Shown here one piece after another: positions 33,788 to 49,636 of a stretch of 64,000 bases of DNA; position 1 is the stretch's first letter, and each line of letters begins with the position of its first letter. The notes under the pieces were generated by a model, which saw nothing but the letters and a program-made list of their open reading frames with translations, searched no databases and had not been told where the DNA came from. This DNA is from a phage, in the NCBI GenBank assembly GCA_027468165.1, contig GCA_027468165.1_3951.1; one strand, written 5' to 3'. The position numbers were made by a program, and so were the translations under genes.

Positions 33788-34039
33788 TAGTTATAAAAGA
33801 GAGGGGTTCACACCCTTCTTTGAAGAAAAAAGTTTAAATAAATTTCAGGAAGAGTGTTTGACAAAGATTGATAGGTTCTATAGAATGCTCCACATGAAAT
33901 GCAATGGGGGAGTTGAGATAAAACAAGATTTCCACCAGAGCATGATTACGGTCATCATTGCGCTACCTCAGCATAATATTAGTTGGCTGTTTATAATTAA
34001 AGAAAATGTGTTTGAATATCAAGTATATCGGAGAATATC

Positions 34040-34261: not shown

Positions 34262-35119
34262 ATGTCTAAAGTTGTTAAAATGAAAGCTCCGGTAGAGAAG
34301 TACAATGGTACTGAACGTCAAACTCTGCGTTACCTGCTGAAAGATGTTTGGTTTTATTACCTGAACACTTCACCACGTCCGGCAAAAGGTAAATCCATTG
34401 ATAAGAAATTCCCAGGAAAAGATTGTAACTACAGTGTTTCAATTCTGGCAGAGGATGGTAACAAGCTGTTTAAAGAGTTTACTAAGTCTAAGAAAAACCC
34501 AGAAGGTTGGGATAAAGTTACTACTGAAGCAGTTGATGCAGATGACTTCGAAGAGAAGTTTGGTTGCAAACCACCATTTGAAGCAGACACTTACCATATC
34601 TTGAAAGTAAGTCGTGCAGCAGCTTATAAAGATGGTGCTGTGTGGACAGCTAAACAGTCATTCCCTGTAATGCTGATTGAAGAAGTAAATGGTAAGCGTG
34701 TAGCTGTTAAACAGCCGATGAAGAAAATCAAAGCTCAAGCATCTGACAAACATGAAGATGACAAGAACTATGATGTAATTCATCCAGATATTGCAGTCGG
34801 TAACGGTTCTTTTGGTAGTGTGATTCTTTCTACTCACTTCTACACTTTTGAGAACAATGTTCTGACAAAACCTATTCAGGAACAGTTTATCATTGATACC
34901 CTTGTACCTTACACTGGTGGTAACGGTGCTAACGGTGAACCTGAACTGGATGAAGACGAACTGGCTATGCTTGGTCTTGATGGTGTTGAAGATAACGGTG
35001 AAATCACTGAAGAAGACGCAAAAGACCACAAACCTTCGAATGATTCTGATGATGGTGACGATGAAGACTTGCCAGACCCAGATGACGAAGAAGATGAAGA
35101 CTTCGATACAGAAGACTAA
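34262..35119 (+). CDS. Single-stranded DNA-binding protein (T7 gp2.5-like, putative)
   Basis: Highly acidic C-terminal tail ending DEEDEDFDTED with an aromatic residue near the end; replication-module context. Confidence 0.5.
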   Translation: MSKVVKMKAPVEKYNGTERQTLRYLLKDVWFYYLNTSPRPAKGKSIDKKFPGKDCNYSVSILAEDGNKLFKEFTKSKKNPEGWDKVTTEAVDADDFEEKFGCKPPFEADTYHILKVSRAAAYKDGAVWTAKQSFPVMLIEEVNGKRVAVKQPMKKIKAQASDKHEDDKNYDVIHPDIAVGNGSFGSVILSTHFYTFENNVLTKPIQEQFIIDTLVPYTGGNGANGEPELDEDELAMLGLDGVEDNGEITEEDAKDHKPSNDSDDGDDEDLPDPDDEEDEDFDTED

Positions 35120-35138
35120 TCTCTAAAAGTTACTTTAA

Positions 35139-35165
35139 AGCCCTGTACTTGGTATGGGGCTTTTT
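35139..35165 (+). terminator. Rho-independent terminator
   Basis: AGCCC/GGGCT hairpin followed by TTTTT. Confidence 0.45.
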
Positions 35166-35181
35166 CATATGGAGAGTCACA

Positions 35182-36222
35182 ATGGAGAAGTATACGCTAA
35201 CAAAACTTCCCGATTCAGTTACACATGTCTTTATTGACTCTGACAGTATTGCCTATAAAGGTGCTTGTGTAGTTGAGAAAGCAAAATATAAATATGTCAA
35301 TAAACTCACAGCAGAAGAATCTGAACCATTTGATAATGCAAAAGATGCTGCAAGATGGTTAGCAGACCAGAGAATCTTTGTAGAAGAGCTTGGCCTAACA
35401 TTTGATGAAGATGAATGGGAAAGACAGACTTGGAAAGAAGCTAAGAGTGAAAAAGAAGCTATCATGGCTACTCAGCAGGTTCTTCAGGAATGGCTTAAGG
35501 TTGTTGGTAAAGAAAGAACTTGGGTAGGTTATTTAACAGAGAAGGGTGTGCATAAACATAAAGACGTTAAAGGTCTTGAGCACCAATATCAAGGTAACCG
35601 TAAAGATGCTGTCACACCAACACACTTAGTTGCTTGTCGTGAATATCTTTTATCCAGACCAGAGTTCAAACTCTTAAAGGGTGGATTCGAAGCTGATTCC
35701 ATCGTAATTGCTAAAGCTGAAAAGATGGGTAAGAAAGCTGCTCTTATGAGTATTGACAAAGACCTTCGACAAGCTGAAGGAACCTATTGTATTGATATGA
35801 CTTATGAAAAATCACCACTAATTTTTATCGCTGATAATAACGTTGGTGATATCTGGGATTGTCCTATCAAATCAAAACCAAAAGCTGCAAAAACAGTTGG
35901 TGTAGGTTTTAAATTTTTGTGTTATCAGGCTGTTGCTGGTGATAATGCAGATAACTACTTCGGTCTTAAAGGTGCTGGAAAAGTAGCTGTGATGAATGCT
36001 TTAGATGGTAAAGAGACCTATAAAGAGTGTCTTGACGCTATCTATGAACTCTATGCTAAAAAAGAGTCTTATACCTATGTATCATGGGATGGACAGACTG
36101 TTACAAAAACACCATTAGAGTTAATGGAGCAGCATTTCTGGGTAGCATATCAAGAGAGAAATCCAAAAGATAATTTCTCTTTTAAGAAATATAATTGGGA
36201 GCCGTGTATGAATGAAGATTAA
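35182..36222 (+). CDS. 5'-3' exonuclease (FEN/RNase H family)
   Basis: N-terminal FIDSDSIAYK (cf. DG.S..YR) and helix-3-turn-helix-like AVAGDNADNYFGLKGAGKVA; ATG after GGAGAG RBS. Confidence 0.6.
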   Translation: MEKYTLTKLPDSVTHVFIDSDSIAYKGACVVEKAKYKYVNKLTAEESEPFDNAKDAARWLADQRIFVEELGLTFDEDEWERQTWKEAKSEKEAIMATQQVLQEWLKVVGKERTWVGYLTEKGVHKHKDVKGLEHQYQGNRKDAVTPTHLVACREYLLSRPEFKLLKGGFEADSIVIAKAEKMGKKAALMSIDKDLRQAEGTYCIDMTYEKSPLIFIADNNVGDIWDCPIKSKPKAAKTVGVGFKFLCYQAVAGDNADNYFGLKGAGKVAVMNALDGKETYKECLDAIYELYAKKESYTYVSWDGQTVTKTPLELMEQHFWVAYQERNPKDNFSFKKYNWEPCMNED

Positions 36223-36709
36223 AGGATTTGGCAATTGTCCTACCTATGGTCATTGGGTATCTTTATGTGGGGAAGTTGACCCCACTAAACATTTTGGTTT
36301 TGTCTACCTAGTGTACTGCAAAAAGACTGGACAGTATTATTTGGGTAAAAAACAGCTTAATAGTGTGACCAAAAGAAAAGTTGCTGGCAAGACTCGGAAG
36401 AAGGTAGTCACTAAGGAGAGTGATTGGATGACTTATGAGACTTCTTCTGAGTATATTAAGAAAGATATCGAGAGCTTTGGAAAAGAATTTTTTGACTTTT
36501 ACATTATCCAAACCTACTACACGAAAGGTGGCCTAGTTTATGGTGAAGCAAACCTCCAACATAAATTCGATGTAATGACAAAAAGGATTGACTCTAAGCT
36601 CAGACTCTTCTACAATGCCAATATTGCAGCAATTAAGTTTATTACTAAAGAAACTTATGAAGATGCTGAAAAAAGAATCCATAAGATAATGAAAGCAAAC
36701 TGTGCTTGA
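36212..36709 (+). CDS. GIY-YIG family endonuclease (putative free-standing homing endonuclease)
   Basis: GFVYLVYCKKTGQYYLGKK fits the GIY-(10 aa)-YIG pattern. Confidence 0.45.
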   Translation: MKIKGFGNCPTYGHWVSLCGEVDPTKHFGFVYLVYCKKTGQYYLGKKQLNSVTKRKVAGKTRKKVVTKESDWMTYETSSEYIKKDIESFGKEFFDFYIIQTYYTKGGLVYGEANLQHKFDVMTKRIDSKLRLFYNANIAAIKFITKETYEDAEKRIHKIMKANCA

Positions 36710-36730
36710 TAACTATTGAGAGAGAATAAA

Positions 36731-36961
36731 ATGTTTAACAAAAGTAAAGCTGTGAGTCATGTAGCAAAGGTTGACAGCAAGATTGAAGAACTTGAGCGCA
36801 TTCTTGCAAATGCCAGAGAGTCAATAATTAAAGAAGTTGAAGCTGTTGAATCTCAAATGCAGCACCTAATGCTTAAACGTCAAGAGTTACGTGAGCATCT
36901 GGAATATATTGAAACACGAGAGCTAAAAGTTAACAGATTTTTAAGGAGTCCGAATGTTTAA
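36731..36961 (+). CDS. Small coiled-coil protein (hypothetical)
   Basis: ATG after GAGAGAG RBS. Confidence 0.3.
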   Translation: MFNKSKAVSHVAKVDSKIEELERILANARESIIKEVEAVESQMQHLMLKRQELREHLEYIETRELKVNRFLRSPNV

Positions 36962-37709
36962 CTCAAGAGAATCAGTAAAAAACTGGAATCTTCGTTGCGG
37001 AAACACCCAAAAGCAACCTTACAGTGATGAGTATTGGGAATCTTTGAAATCCCAGTCTCTGTGTATGCTTGAAGAAGCAAAAGAGCTTGTAAAAGCAATT
37101 GAAGAGAAAGACCCCATTGAGACACTGGATGCTCAGGCAGATTTGCAATATGTTCTTGACGGTTTGATTTACCTGTCACAACATGACCATAACGGTGCTA
37201 TGAAAGCTGTTTGCCATAATAATGACCTGAAGTATACAGACGACTATGAAGAAGCTTTAAAGCGTCTTGCAGATGTTGAGAAGCGTACTGGTCAAGAGTG
37301 TATCATTAGAATGTCAGTGGTTGATGGTAAAGAGTGGTATGCGATTGTCCGTGCAGCCGATGGGAAGATTATGAAGCAATCAAATCTCCCTAAAGTACAG
37401 CTTGGTGAATACATTGTAGAGCTTGAAAGCCAAGAACTTTTTGTGGTAGTATCTGAGACATGCGTTATCTGCAAAGGTATTGTAGGTAGCTTAAAGGATT
37501 TGGGTGTAGATGGTTTTGTAGAAGTTAATCCAATTACCTCTAAAGCAGATAAAGATTTCTGTAAAGAGAATGGACTATGGATTGCAGATATTGTCTACTA
37601 CGATGGTGAGCAGTTCCATGTAACCTCATACCCGAAACTGAACTATGATGCTAATAACCTGAAGTGCTGGTTAAAAGGGGTTGGTTATAATGGATTCACA
37701 GAACATTAA
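36954..37709 (+). CDS. Hypothetical protein
   Basis: 251 aa ORF. Confidence 0.4.
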   Translation: MFNSRESVKNWNLRCGNTQKQPYSDEYWESLKSQSLCMLEEAKELVKAIEEKDPIETLDAQADLQYVLDGLIYLSQHDHNGAMKAVCHNNDLKYTDDYEEALKRLADVEKRTGQECIIRMSVVDGKEWYAIVRAADGKIMKQSNLPKVQLGEYIVELESQELFVVVSETCVICKGIVGSLKDLGVDGFVEVNPITSKADKDFCKENGLWIADIVYYDGEQFHVTSYPKLNYDANNLKCWLKGVGYNGFTEH

Positions 37710-47360: not shown

Positions 47361-47894
47361 ATGTATCTGTCAAATCTGAAACGTTCGGTTGCAATGTCAG
47401 TTCTAAGACTCAGCTTTGAGGAACGTCAAGAGTTCATTGACACCCACCAATATGACCCTTCTAACTCTAATCACATGATTCTCTGGAATCGTGAGAGTAC
47501 TCGTGAAAGAGCACTATTCCGCTATTACCCACACTACACTATAGATAACCTGTATGAATGTTTTGTTGTGAAGAACACCATTACAGTTCTCAATAAGCTT
47601 TGTAGATACACAGGTAACCAGTCCTTCACATTAGGTCACCACAAGCCTGTTACAAAAGGTGGTGAGCATCACTGTACAAACTGGTTTATCCAAACTAAAG
47701 CTGATAATCAGAAGCAAGGAGATAACCTCCTAAGTACTCCTAAGATGACCTATGAAGAGCAAGAGAAATATATCAAAAATAATATGCCAGATGTGCTTGA
47801 CAACAACTATACAGATTTGGCAATATCTCTCCTGTTGAAGTTCGAGACAGTTTATAGGGCAACTTACAATGGCAGTAACAAACGTAACTTTTGA
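47361..47894 (+). CDS. HNH endonuclease-like protein (putative free-standing homing endonuclease)
   Basis: LGHHKPVTKGGEHHCTNWFIQTKADNQKQGD resembles an HNH core (His pair, Asn, conserved Gly). Confidence 0.45.
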   Translation: MYLSNLKRSVAMSVLRLSFEERQEFIDTHQYDPSNSNHMILWNRESTRERALFRYYPHYTIDNLYECFVVKNTITVLNKLCRYTGNQSFTLGHHKPVTKGGEHHCTNWFIQTKADNQKQGDNLLSTPKMTYEEQEKYIKNNMPDVLDNNYTDLAISLLLKFETVYRATYNGSNKRNF

Positions 47895-47909
47895 TTGAGA
47901 GAGAAAACT

Positions 47910-48365
47910 ATGATTTTTTGCAGCTTCCAAAAAAGAATTATTGAGATTCTATACAATAAGTTTGGGACAGATAACACATTTGACTCAAATGAAGCTATTG
48001 AAGCCCTACAAGAAGGAAGTGATTATATCAAAAAACAGCCAATAGCAAACATCAGGTACTACTTGACTCAGATGAGAAAGTGGGGTGTGCTCATCGTGGT
48101 AGGACAGATTAAGCAACAAGGGAGGATGCTCATCAACCAATTAAATAGGGGTTTTATTGAGAAGCACATTCAGCTAGAATATTTACTTAAAGAGCCACGA
48201 AAACAACGTGAAGAGCAGCAAAAAGACTTAAGTGGTGGTGTAGATGTGTCTCCAGACATAAAATTCTTTATTGGTGAGTTGATGTTTGATACACTCCAAG
48301 ATGCTGTTGAACACTGCAAAAAGTATATTATCAAAGTAAAACGTGCAAAAATTATTTGGGAGTAA
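47910..48365 (+). CDS. Tandem paralog family member A1 (unknown function)
   Basis: About 60% identical to A2 at 48787; shares N-terminal ILY.KFG.DNTF and C-terminal EA.EHCKK..I.VK.AK.IWE with all four members. Confidence 0.5.
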   Translation: MIFCSFQKRIIEILYNKFGTDNTFDSNEAIEALQEGSDYIKKQPIANIRYYLTQMRKWGVLIVVGQIKQQGRMLINQLNRGFIEKHIQLEYLLKEPRKQREEQQKDLSGGVDVSPDIKFFIGELMFDTLQDAVEHCKKYIIKVKRAKIIWE

Positions 48366-48369
48366 TAAC

Positions 48370-48765
48370 ATGTTTGAGCTTCTGAAGGTTCTGTATATAA
48401 ATTTTGGCTATGACAAAACATTTTCTGGCTCACAACTAACTAAGGTTTTTAATAAATATCTACCACATGCTTCAATCAGGGATAAAGCTAATTGGTCTCA
48501 CAGATTACGTAAAAGTGGATATCTTAGTGTTGTTGGAGCGACAGGCTTTAATAATGAGTATCTTATGAGAATCAATGAAAGCAAAGCTAAAAATGTGCTT
48601 TTAAGTTGTAATGACCATCAACAAAAGGATGAAGAGGTTAGTGTAGGTGAAGTAGGGTACTTCATAGGTGATATACACTTTACCAGTATGGAGGCAGCAG
48701 TTGAGCATTGTAAGAGAACGGTTATCCAAACAAAAAGAAAGCGTATTGTTTGGGAAGAAGTTTAA
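48370..48765 (+). CDS. Tandem paralog family member B1 (unknown function)
   Basis: Starts MFELLKVLYINFGYDKTF; pairs with B2 at 49256; shares the C-terminal motif. Confidence 0.5.
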   Translation: MFELLKVLYINFGYDKTFSGSQLTKVFNKYLPHASIRDKANWSHRLRKSGYLSVVGATGFNNEYLMRINESKAKNVLLSCNDHQQKDEEVSVGEVGYFIGDIHFTSMEAAVEHCKRTVIQTKRKRIVWEEV

Positions 48766-48786
48766 ACATTTGATTAGGAATACACT

Positions 48787-49251
48787 ATGATTTTTTGCAA
48801 TTTACAGAAGCACGTAATAGAGATTTTATACAAAACCTTCGGGACAGAAAACACTTTTGACTCTAACGAAGCAATTGACGCATTAAGAGAGAATAGCCTT
48901 TTTATACGAGGCCAGTCAATCAGCAATACCCGTGGGTATCTAACAATGTTAAGACAGTCTGGTGTACTGCTGACTGTAGGGCAGGTAAAAAGCAAAGGTA
49001 GACTAAGTATTAATCAATTAAATCGAGCCTTTATGGAGAAGCACATACAACTGTCAAGGATGCTAGACAATACGCGTGAAGAGTTGGGGAGTTCACAAAA
49101 AGCAAGTTCACCTGATGTTAAAGATGTGGATGTACAACCTGACGTAAGATACTTTATTGCTGATGTTATGTTTAAAACACTCGATGAAGCTATTGAGCAC
49201 TGCAAAAAGCATCTTATTAAAGTTAAACATGCAAAAGTTATTTGGGAGTGA
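48787..49251 (+). CDS. Tandem paralog family member A2 (unknown function)
   Basis: MIFCNLQKHVIEILYKTFGTENTFDSNEAI... paralog of A1. Confidence 0.5.
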   Translation: MIFCNLQKHVIEILYKTFGTENTFDSNEAIDALRENSLFIRGQSISNTRGYLTMLRQSGVLLTVGQVKSKGRLSINQLNRAFMEKHIQLSRMLDNTREELGSSQKASSPDVKDVDVQPDVRYFIADVMFKTLDEAIEHCKKHLIKVKHAKVIWE

Positions 49252-49255
49252 TGCT

Positions 49256-49636
49256 ATGATTGAACTGTTAAAAGTCCTATATAAAAAGTTTGGTTATGAT
49301 AAAACTTTTACTTGTTCACAGATACGTAGTATCCATGACAAGGAATTTCCAAATGTATCCAAGACAAACAAGTCAACTCGGTTCAATCGTCTTCGCCAGA
49401 GGGGTTACATTAAAATAGTTGGATACAAGAATAACTCTTTCGAGTATGTAATGCAGATTAACAGAGAAGTATCAAGTAAAATACTTGAAGAGCCAACAGC
49501 CGAAGAACAAAAGATACAAGATGGTGAAGTTCGCTTCTTTGTGGAGAAGGAAAGTTTTGGGTCAATAGATGAAGCTATCGAGTATTGTAAAAAGAACATT
49601 ATCCAGATAAAGCGTAGAAAGGTTATTTGGGAATAA
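49256..49636 (+). CDS. Tandem paralog family member B2 (unknown function)
   Basis: MIELLKVLYKKFGYDKTF... paralog of B1; ATG after GGGAG RBS. Confidence 0.5.
   Translation: MIELLKVLYKKFGYDKTFTCSQIRSIHDKEFPNVSKTNKSTRFNRLRQRGYIKIVGYKNNSFEYVMQINREVSSKILEEPTAEEQKIQDGEVRFFVEKESFGSIDEAIEYCKKNIIQIKRRKVIWE

What the first reader, a model, noticed from the sequence alone, without database searches (positions are those of the whole stretch)
36212..36709. Free-standing GIY-YIG endonuclease gene inside the replication module
A 165 aa ORF carries GFVYLVYCKKTGQYYLG, fitting the GIY-(10 aa)-YIG spacing. It overlaps the stop of the FEN exonuclease gene and sits between conserved replication genes, the usual position of free-standing homing endonucleases, which can also mark local recombination hotspots.
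Basis: partly seen in the sequence, partly recalled or inferred. Interest (0 to 1): 0.4.

Follow-up and report, generated by a model that had tools for sequence, protein, structure and literature searches.

The report
Core GIY-YIG nuclease beside phage exonuclease
The ORF is a real GIY-YIG nuclease gene, but it lacks a DNA-binding domain and is present in every related phage examined, so it is more likely a housekeeping nuclease working with the adjacent exonuclease than a mobile homing endonuclease.

Summary

The homing interpretation is not supported:
- The window is a Felixounavirus. The ORF sits beside FEN in all 17 Ounavirinae loci examined and in about 297 of about 300 database genomes.
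- It diverges in step with its flanks (62% identity to the Erwinia phage copy, versus 54% for FEN).
- dN/dS is 0.03-0.10.
- It has no NUMOD or HTH DNA-binding module. Longer relatives do.
- Short homologues in Naomviridae and marine phage contigs lie directly downstream of non-homologous exonuclease genes (FEN, Cas4-like, Rad50-like).

Best reading (inferred, not shown): it is the endonuclease partner of the exonuclease, used for host-DNA breakdown and/or processing of replication and recombination intermediates, as with T7 gp3/gp6 or T4 EndoII.

The mobile element at this locus is an HNH gene. It is inserted at the FEN|GIY junction in 7 of 17 relatives and is absent from this window. Interest is modest.

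The parts
36212..36709 (+). Gene for a 165-aa single-domain SegE-type GIY-YIG nuclease. Features: N-terminal YGHW motif (12-15), GIY (30-32), YIG (43-45), a basic beta-hairpin (50-69), SDWxxYxxSS (70-79), Glu112, Tyr134-Asn135, and a C-terminal helix (150-164).
36197..36222 (+). Junction that probably gives translational coupling: a GGGAG ribosome-binding motif (36197-36201), the GIY-YIG ATG at 36212, and the FEN stop TAA at 36220-36222 (11-nt overlap).
   Evidence: Read directly from the sequence. The same overlap (-10 nt) occurs in HNH-less Felixounavirus loci and -7 nt in Erwinia phiEa104. Coupling itself is inferred.
35182..36222 (+). FEN-type 5'-3' exonuclease gene (T7 gp6 / T5 D15-like), the proposed partner of the nuclease. 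The most upstream possible start is TTG 35149; relatives are annotated from the ATG at 35182.
   Evidence: PHROG 107 'exonuclease' E=4.4e-64; weak Pfam 5_3_exonuc hits; annotated as exodeoxyribonuclease in relatives.
36192..36208 (.). Empty insertion site of a sporadic HNH/AP2 homing-endonuclease gene. It is unoccupied in this window. In L002, L015, L018-L021 and L095 it holds a gene of about 500 nt.
   Evidence: BLASTN breakpoints at query positions 1931/1937 and 1944/1947 of window 34262-37709; annotations 'HNH homing endonuclease' and 'AP2 domain protein'; a gap of 466-475 nt between FEN and GIY-YIG in 6 loci.
35612..36361 (.). Mosaic tract covering the 3' half of FEN and the first ~150 nt of the GIY-YIG gene. 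Nucleotide identity to relatives falls to 76-91% here, while the flanks are 95-100% identical.
   Evidence: Identity in 150-nt bins. The dip is strongest in HNH-carrying L002, L019 and L020, and also appears in HNH-less L017.
34262..35119 (+). Context: a 285-aa protein with an acidic C-terminal tail (...DDEEDEDFDTED), a candidate T7 gp2.5-like SSB. It is the first gene after the promoter-like sites at 33858 and 34197.
   Evidence: PHROG 3877, function unknown; tail read from the translation; 11/12 promoter-like matches and no + strand terminator before 38500. The SSB assignment is inference.

Best explanation
The ORF encodes a stand-alone catalytic domain of the SegE-type GIY-YIG nuclease family. 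It is a fixed, vertically inherited core gene of the Ounavirinae replication module, not a mobile homing-endonuclease gene. It is probably co-transcribed and translationally coupled with the FEN-type 5'-3' exonuclease gene directly upstream. The proposed mechanism is inferred. The protein would be a DNA endonuclease of low sequence specificity or of structure selectivity that makes nicks or breaks. The exonuclease would then enlarge them. The pair would convert host DNA into nucleotides for the adjacent nucleotide-metabolism enzymes (RNR, MazG, dNMP kinase) and/or trim branched replication and recombination intermediates. This is the role played by gp3 + gp6 in T7 and by EndoII (DenA) + gp46/47 in T4. 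Shown here: domain identity, fold, conserved active-site residues, universal presence, purifying selection, lack of a DNA-binding module, and recurrent linkage to exonuclease genes. Inferred: nuclease activity, substrate, and cooperation with the exonuclease.

For: Active site: Y32, Y43, E112 and N135 are invariant in 74 mostly short relatives, and the equivalent columns are invariant in 83 long relatives with homing-endonuclease architecture.

Core gene: 259 phage records match the locus at the DNA level. About 297 records hold the protein at >=60% identity, against 304 with FEN. Synteny is the same in Kolesnikvirus phiEa104. Identity tracks or exceeds that of the flanks. dN/dS is 0.03-0.10, similar to FEN and RNR.

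No DNA-binding module: Pfam finds only the catalytic domain at residues 21-138, and the model shows one domain plus one terminal helix. Among long relatives, 42 of 83 carry NUMOD3 and others carry HTH domains. The query lies in an all-short clade of 25, and its 43 nearest relatives are all short.

Exonuclease linkage: of 86 loci with a same-strand upstream gene, the neighbour falls in a BLAST cluster of 35 Cas4-domain exonuclease-like proteins (three members tested, phrog_1990, E about 1e-42). It is FEN in 23 loci, an HNH insert behind FEN in 6, and Rad50-like in 4. The same arrangement occurs in Naomviridae DSS3_PM1 and in marine podovirus-like contigs.

No alternative endonuclease: no Holliday-junction resolvase, EndoVII, RuvC or RusA is annotated in the Felixounavirus HMD-P10 genome.

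Precedent: T4 denA, a single-domain GIY-YIG nuclease that starts host-DNA degradation, lies directly after nrdB. Cyanomyoviruses carry this family near nrdAB and lack denA, denB and ndd (PMC2984593). T7 gp6 FEN is implicated in host-DNA breakdown (PMC4124056, title and abstract only).
Against: There is no biochemical or genetic evidence for this protein or any short-form relative. No paper mentions the family under PF19835, SegE_GIY-YIG or phrog_447. The canonical catalytic Arg (I-TevI R27) has no invariant Arg counterpart, and the helix that carries it in I-TevI is replaced in the model by a beta-hairpin, so activity or chemistry may differ. The protein is not a sequence relative of T4 EndoII (hhalign probability 0.5%), so the analogy rests on architecture and position only. 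The cyanomyovirus homologue examined (S-SM1) is not next to an exonuclease gene. The 80 IMG/VR loci are those most similar to the query and are partly redundant, so the neighbourhood counts are not independent events. The absence of another resolvase rests on annotation of a genome with many hypothetical proteins. How an unmodified phage genome would be spared from such a nuclease is unexplained.
Confidence: 0.55

Rival explanations
1. It is a free-standing GIY-YIG homing endonuclease. It would cut a specific site in genomes lacking it and spread by gene conversion, and has simply reached fixation in this phage group.
For: The catalytic domain belongs to the family that includes T4 SegE and many NUMOD3-bearing Seg-like endonucleases. 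It lies between conserved genes. GenBank depositors often call it 'GIY-YIG homing endonuclease'. The locus is mosaic.
Against: There is no DNA-binding module. The gene is present in 17 of 17 loci and essentially all Ounavirinae records at the same position, across genera. dN/dS is 0.03-0.10, and the protein is more conserved than its FEN neighbour. Short homologues are syntenic with exonuclease genes in unrelated phage families. The sporadic element that accounts for the mosaic tract is the HNH gene.
Confidence: 0.08
2. It is an anti-defence nuclease that destroys a host immune nucleic acid (for example retron msDNA or a signalling or guide molecule) rather than acting in phage DNA metabolism.
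For: A PhageMaP study of the Felixounavirus Bas63 reports that a protein it describes as GIY-YIG (gp77) counters retron Ec67 (PMC11482910). Small phage nucleases are common counter-defence factors (general knowledge).
Against: gp77 is bas63_0077, a different protein that looks HNH-like. The orthologue of this ORF is bas63_0057. Counter-defence genes are usually variable accessory genes, whereas this one is core, highly conserved, and embedded in the replication operon across phage families with very different hosts. There is no PADLOC match.
Confidence: 0.1
3. It is a DNA-repair incision nuclease, like the UvrC N-terminal domain or Slx1. It would nick at lesions or stalled forks in phage DNA, and FEN would then remove the damaged flap.
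Confidence: 0.12
4. It is a catalytically dead GIY-YIG fold retained as a DNA-binding or structural accessory of the replisome or exonuclease.
For: The canonical Arg is not conserved as Arg, and the Arg-bearing helix is replaced by a lysine-rich hairpin.
Against: Tyr, Tyr, Glu and Asn are strictly invariant in 157 relatives, including long forms with homing-endonuclease architecture that must cut DNA to persist. Lys47 is invariant and position 54 is basic in 66 of 74.
Confidence: 0.05

Closest known systems
Seg-like free-standing GIY-YIG homing endonucleases (T4 SegE; PF19835 long forms with NUMOD3/HTH)
   Same: Same catalytic-domain family (PF19835). The invariant residues are the same: the N-terminal GHW motif, GIY, YIG-K, W..Y..S, Glu and Tyr-Asn. 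Both are free-standing genes lying between conserved phage genes.
   Different: This protein lacks the linker and the NUMOD3/HTH DNA-binding region that give Seg enzymes their target recognition. It is fixed rather than sporadic, is under strong purifying selection, and is syntenic across genera and families. T4 SegE itself matches PF19835 only weakly (E=6.4e-9).
T4 endonuclease II (DenA)
   Same: A small single-domain phage GIY-YIG nuclease that is not a homing enzyme. It is encoded inside the nucleotide-metabolism cluster, directly after nrdB, and works upstream of an exonuclease in host-DNA breakdown (record annotation; bioRxiv 10.1101/2025.11.05.686725).
T7 gp3 (endonuclease I) with gp6 (FEN-type exonuclease)
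   Same: The replication module is T7-like: primase-helicase, a gp2.5-like acidic-tail protein, family-A DNA polymerase and a FEN-type exonuclease. An endonuclease gene sits beside the exonuclease gene. The proposed joint roles are host-DNA breakdown and processing of recombination intermediates (PMC4124056).
   Different: From general knowledge, T7 endonuclease I has an unrelated fold. The similarity is functional analogy inferred from gene context, not homology.
I-TevI catalytic domain
   Different: I-TevI is intron-encoded and carries a zinc finger, a minor-groove helix and an HTH domain (Pfam I-TevI_DNA-bd). Its Arg27 helix has no helical counterpart here; the model places a 20-residue basic beta-hairpin there instead.

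Membership tests
GIY-YIG nuclease superfamily | GIY and YIG motifs separated by 10-11 residues on two adjacent beta-strands | tested here: met
   FVY at 30-32 and YLG at 43-45, with 10 residues between them. Strands 29-36 and 42-48 in the model. G29, F30, Y32, Y43 and G45 are invariant in 74 relatives.
GIY-YIG nuclease superfamily | Metal-binding Glu in the helix after beta-3 (I-TevI E75) | tested here: met
   E112 lies in helix 105-118 and is invariant in 74/74; the equivalent column is invariant in 83/83 long forms. The profile alignment to I-TevI stops 4 residues before it, so the equivalence rests on motif position.
GIY-YIG nuclease superfamily | Conserved Asn (I-TevI N90, motif GYN) | tested here: met
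   Y134-N135 are invariant. The local motif FYNANIA compares with I-TevI GYNIADA.
GIY-YIG nuclease superfamily | Catalytic Arg in helix alpha-1 (I-TevI R27) | tested here: inconclusive
   There is no invariant Arg. hhalign (E=4.5e-4, probability 33%) places R27 opposite T53, next to K54, which is K/R in 66/74. K47 is invariant. The model has a beta-hairpin (50-69) where I-TevI has alpha-1.
GIY-YIG nuclease superfamily | Three-stranded sheet plus helices fold | tested here: met
Pfam PF19835 (SegE_GIY-YIG) | Score above the curated gathering threshold | tested here: met
   94.1 bits against a cutoff of 25, covering profile positions 10-123 of 123.
Free-standing homing endonuclease (Seg-like) | Catalytic domain joined to a sequence-reading DNA-binding region (NUMOD, HTH or zinc finger) | tested here: not met
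   Only the catalytic domain is found. The model is one domain plus a terminal helix. Long relatives carry NUMOD3 (42/83), I-HmuI NUMOD-like, NUMOD1 or HTH domains.
Free-standing homing endonuclease (Seg-like) | Sporadic presence/absence among close relatives at an otherwise collinear locus | tested here: not met
   Present in 17/17 Ounavirinae loci read here. About 297 records hold it, against 304 with FEN. By contrast the HNH gene at the same junction is present in 7/17.
Free-standing homing endonuclease (Seg-like) | Evolutionary history or constraint decoupled from the flanking genes | tested here: not met
   Identity co-varies with the flanks (98%, 88% and 62% tiers). dN/dS is 0.03-0.10, comparable to FEN and RNR.
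Free-standing homing endonuclease (Seg-like) | Site-specific cleavage of the endonuclease-less allele and biased inheritance | not testable with these tools
   This needs enzyme assays and mixed infections. No natural endonuclease-less allele was found to serve as a substrate.
T4 EndoII (DenA) family | Sequence homology to DenA | tested here: not met
   hhalign probability 0.5%, E=0.12. DenA hits PF01541, not PF19835.
T4 EndoII (DenA) family | Nicking of host DNA that initiates its degradation | not testable with these tools
   Requires infection experiments (host-DNA fate in a knockout).
NAD synthetase (the name carried by PHROG 447 and many GenBank records) | NAD synthase / PP-loop ATPase domain | tested here: not met
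   A Pfam scan at E<=1 returns only PF19835. NCBIfam returns only a sub-threshold group I intron endonuclease model. The label appears to be a propagated mis-annotation.

The most novel reading that the evidence does not exclude
Short, domain-only SegE-type GIY-YIG proteins may form a widespread domesticated lineage of homing-endonuclease catalytic domains. They would serve as the 'missing' general endonuclease of several phage groups: Ounavirinae, T4-like cyanophages (which lack denA, denB and ndd), dU-containing Naomviridae, and marine podoviruses. In each they would act as an obligate partner of whichever 5'-3' exonuclease the phage encodes (FEN, Cas4-like or Rad50/Mre11), starting host-chromosome recycling and/or resolving branched DNA.
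Probability: 0.3. Interest if true: 0.55.

Novelty: new variant of a known kind. Interest (0 to 1): 0.3.

Why it matters
For annotation: hundreds of phage genomes label this gene either 'GIY-YIG homing endonuclease' or 'NAD synthetase'. The first label is misleading and the second is wrong. The gene should not be counted as a mobile element or as a marker of recent horizontal transfer.

For biology: if the exonuclease-partner reading is right, it names a candidate for the so-far-undescribed host-DNA degradation or branch-processing endonuclease in cyanomyoviruses and Felix O1-like phages. Felix O1-like phages are used for Salmonella and E. coli typing and biocontrol. It would also be an example of a homing-endonuclease catalytic domain recruited to a housekeeping role.

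For this locus: the real recombination hotspot is the FEN|GIY junction, which is targeted by an HNH gene absent from this genome.

Tried and rejected
- Sequence searches of the PDB with the protein and with a family profile gave only chance hits, E>=0.19. Structure prediction was needed instead.
- The PhageMaP report that a Bas63 'GIY-YIG' protein, gp77, counters retron Ec67 looked like a direct functional lead. The paper's gene numbers match the locus tags (gp79/80 for NAD+ synthesis, 84/85 for rIIA/B), so gp77 is bas63_0077. That is an unrelated protein with a weak HNH match. The orthologue of this ORF is bas63_0057. The paper's supplementary fitness tables are not held.
- A third homologue search seeded with I-TevI, meant to give a better profile-profile alignment for the Arg, returned only 9 mostly fragmentary hits. 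The resulting alignment improved only to 33% probability.
- Direct BLASTP against T4 SegE aligns only the GIY..YIG stretch.
- There is no PADLOC match. NCBIfam gives only a sub-threshold match.
- Literature searches for PF19835, SegE_GIY-YIG and phrog_447 found nothing.
- The idea that short forms are the whole family, suggested by the word-indexed search, was corrected by the exhaustive search, in which 83 of 147 new representatives are long.
- The promoter/terminator scan found no more sites than shuffled sequence gives, so co-transcription is only suggested.
Full report
**1. Observation**

The ORF at 36212-36709 (+) exists, starts with ATG and encodes 165 aa. Residues 28-46 read FGFVYLVYCKKTGQYYLGK, so FVY and YLG are separated by 10 residues. 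Its ATG lies 11 nt inside the 3' end of the preceding FEN-type exonuclease gene, whose stop is at 36220-36222. A GGGAG motif lies 10 nt upstream of the ATG.

The match is far beyond chance. Pfam PF19835 (SegE_GIY-YIG) gives E=9.5e-27 over residues 21-138. PHROG 447 gives E=2e-47, and two 'homing endonuclease' PHROGs match more weakly. PHROG 447 carries the name 'NAD synthetase', but no NAD-synthase domain is detectable.

**2. What genome this is**

The 3.4-kb surroundings match 259 phage records, nearly all Felixounavirus (Escherichia, Salmonella and Shigella phages), at 90-98% identity. The local gene order is: primase/helicase, two small ORFs, a 285-aa protein with an acidic tail, FEN, this ORF, a 77-aa protein, MazG, two small ORFs, and the RNR alpha subunit.

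**3. Structure and active site**

An AlphaFold2 model built on a 74-sequence alignment has mean pLDDT 95. It is a single domain:
- beta-1 at 29-36 (GIY) and beta-2 at 42-48 (YIG);
- an extra basic beta-hairpin at 50-69;
- a helix at 80-89, beta-3 at 94-102, and a helix at 105-118 carrying Glu112;
- a loop with Tyr134-Asn135;
- one C-terminal helix at 150-164.

G29, F30, Y32, Y43, G45, K47, W72, Y75, S78, E112, Y134 and N135 are invariant in the 74 relatives, and H14-W15 are nearly so. The corresponding columns are also invariant in 83 long relatives.

The canonical Arg (I-TevI R27) has no invariant Arg counterpart. A low-confidence profile alignment places it next to K54, which is K/R in 66 of 74 sequences, and K47 is invariant.

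**4. Is it a homing endonuclease?**

Four tests were made.

(a) Distribution. tblastn finds the protein at >=60% identity in 297 phage records. The FEN protein is found in 304 records, and these include a few more distant phages in which the GIY-YIG protein is about 50% identical. Every one of the 17 Ounavirinae loci I read holds the gene directly after FEN, or after an HNH insert that follows FEN. These loci are the window, Bas63, SPJ41, HMD-P10, typing phage 11, eleven IMG/VR contigs and Erwinia phiEa104.

(b) Co-divergence. Protein identity to the window copy falls into three tiers:

| Group | GIY-YIG ORF | FEN | RNR | MazG |
|---|---|---|---|---|
| Felixounavirus | 94-99% | 91-99% | about 99% | 98-100% |
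| Moogle-like contigs | about 88% | about 90% | about 93% | 77-80% |
| Erwinia phiEa104 | 62.5% | 54% | 57% | 38% |

The ORF is thus among the best-conserved genes of the module.

(c) Selection. Pairwise dN/dS is 0.03-0.10, like FEN (0.02-0.10), and compares with RNR at 0.014-0.06.

(d) Architecture. There is no DNA-binding module. In an exhaustive search of 1.84 billion representatives the family has 3423 members at E<=1e-3. Of the top 147 new representatives, 83 are longer than 220 aa, and 42 of those 83 carry NUMOD3. Others carry NUMOD1, I-HmuI-like NUMOD or HTH domains, which is the classical Seg/I-TevI architecture. Fifty-two are 185 aa or shorter. On a neighbour-joining tree of the catalytic domain, architecture is clustered (41 changes against 73 expected from shuffling). 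The query sits in an all-short clade of 25, and its 43 nearest relatives are all short.

Together these results argue against a selfish, mobile element and for a gene maintained because the phage needs it.

**5. Gene neighbourhood beyond Ounavirinae**

- In the roseophage DSS3_PM1 (Naomviridae) the homologue (42% identity) again overlaps the end of a 5'-3' exonuclease gene. It sits next to primase/helicase and RNR genes.
- In marine contigs of about 40 kb the order is primase-helicase, PolA, SSB, 5'-3' exonuclease, GIY-YIG, then RNR. Other contigs keep it within the replication module.
- Among the 93 loci with a family hit, 86 had a same-strand gene immediately upstream. These upstream genes fall into BLAST clusters of 35, 23, 6 and 4, plus small unclassified groups:
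  - The cluster of 35 was identified from three members as Cas4-domain PD-(D/E)xK exonuclease (phrog_1990, E about 1e-42).
  - The cluster of 23 is FEN.
  - The cluster of 6 is the HNH insert that itself follows FEN.
  - The cluster of 4 is Rad50/SbcC-like.
  - A Mre11-like phosphoesterase is a common downstream neighbour.
- The partner therefore changes family while the exonuclease-then-GIY-YIG arrangement recurs. These loci are partly redundant and were selected for similarity to the query, so the counts are descriptive only.
- In T4-like cyanophages the homologue is annotated 'NAD synthetase' (T4-GC 213) and appears in several hundred records. In the one record read, S-SM1, it lies about 1.7 kb downstream of nrdA-nrdB and is not beside an exonuclease gene.

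**6. Mechanism (inferred)**

The module is T7-like: a gp4-type primase-helicase, an acidic-tail gp2.5-like protein, a family-A polymerase and a gp6-type FEN exonuclease. No T7 endonuclease I, T4 endonuclease VII, RuvC or RusA is annotated in a fully annotated Felixounavirus.

T4 provides a precedent. DenA (EndoII) is a single-domain, non-homing GIY-YIG nuclease encoded directly after nrdB, and it initiates host-DNA degradation. T4 and T6 escape the Metis defence system by denA mutations (bioRxiv 10.1101/2025.11.05.686725). DenA is related to this ORF only at superfamily level. Cyanomyoviruses lack denA, denB and ndd, and have been proposed to use an undescribed route for host-DNA degradation (PMC2984593). 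T7 gp6 FEN is linked to host-DNA breakdown and recombination (PMC4124056).

I therefore propose that this protein is the endonuclease that opens DNA for the adjacent exonuclease. The purpose would be nucleotide salvage from host DNA and/or processing of branched replication and recombination intermediates.

Shown: domain, fold, invariant residues, universality, selection, and linkage to exonuclease genes. Inferred: activity, substrate, and partnership. Unexplained: how the phage's own DNA would be spared, and what replaces the canonical Arg.

**7. The real mobile element at this locus**

In 7 of 17 Ounavirinae loci a gene of about 500 nt lies exactly between the FEN stop and the GIY-YIG start. 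It is annotated 'HNH homing endonuclease' in one record and 'AP2 domain protein' in another. Many database records list an HNH gene after FEN. In this window the site (about 36192-36208) is empty.

Nucleotide identity to the window drops to 76-86% over about 35612-36361 in HNH-carrying L002, L019 and L020. It drops to 81-89% in HNH-less L017. The flanks are 95-100% identical. This pattern is what co-conversion around a homing site would produce.

**8. Known or new?**

The gene is already catalogued: in Pfam as PF19835, in PHROGs as 447, and in GenBank as 'GIY-YIG homing endonuclease', 'NAD synthetase' or 'hypothetical'. I found no paper on it. The only Felixounavirus paper that mentions GIY-YIG concerns a different gene.

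What is new here is the reclassification. It is a domain-only, core, exonuclease-linked branch of a homing-endonuclease family. That makes it a new variant of a known kind (phage GIY-YIG nucleases with housekeeping roles, like EndoII), supported only by computation.

**9. Verdict**

- Observation: confirmed.
- Interpretation: partly supported. It is a GIY-YIG nuclease; it is not a homing or mobile element.
- Interest: 0.3. The finding as submitted is ordinary. The reinterpretation is a reasonable, testable hypothesis about a widespread, mis-annotated phage nuclease.

Noticed in passing
window 36192-36208 (empty site); L002 3501-4001, L095 3558-4058, and L015, L018-L021: A sporadic HNH/AP2 homing-endonuclease gene of about 500 nt is inserted exactly at the FEN-stop/GIY-start junction in 7 of 17 Ounavirinae loci. 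It is absent from this window.
   Followed up: partly
window 35612-36361: A mosaic tract: nucleotide identity to relatives drops to 76-86% in HNH-carrying L002, L019 and L020, and to 81-89% in HNH-less L017. The flanks are 95-100% identical. The first 150 nt of the GIY-YIG ORF are 83-91% identical to all 13 Felixounavirus and Moogle-like loci compared. This looks like gene conversion around the HNH site.
   Followed up: partly
window 47361-47894 (+), 177 aa: This is the orthologue of bas63_0077. PMC11482910 reports that gene as a counter to retron Ec67 and describes it as containing a GIY-YIG domain. My Pfam and PHROG scans see no GIY-YIG domain, only a weak HNH match (phrog_2214, 5e-5). The sequence has an H-N-H-like motif, GHHKPVTKGGEHHCTNW...DN.
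   Followed up: partly
window 34262-35119 (+), 285 aa: A protein of unknown function (phrog_3877) with a strongly acidic C-terminal tail (...DDEEDEDFDTED), lying between primase/helicase and FEN. This resembles the T7 gp2.5-type single-strand DNA-binding protein. In marine contigs an Enc34-type ssDNA-binding protein occupies the same position.
   Followed up: no
PHROG 447 and many GenBank/RefSeq records (e.g. NC_015292 gp099, S-SM1 SSM1_208): The product name 'NAD synthetase' is attached to this GIY-YIG family in PHROGs, and from there in hundreds of Pharokka or RefSeq annotations. No NAD-synthase domain is detectable.
   Followed up: yes
window 47895-49636 (+): Four consecutive paralogous ORFs of 140-159 aa share a C-terminal motif (...A[VI]EHCKK..I.[VIQ]K..K[IV][IV]WE). 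They look like a tandemly duplicated small gene family of unknown function.
   Followed up: no
BFVD entries K4IC63 (87 aa) and K4I3J2 (91 aa), Escherichia phage EC6: In phage EC6 the orthologue is deposited as two fragments, 93% and 95% identical to the N- and C-terminal halves. This is either a frameshift or sequencing error, or a rare natural pseudogene.
   Followed up: no
L003 21631-24517 (Bas63 nrdD): The anaerobic RNR large-subunit gene of Bas63 is annotated as a two-part joined CDS with a 'putative homing endonuclease' gene inside it, which is an intron-type arrangement. It contrasts with the fixed GIY-YIG gene.
   Followed up: no
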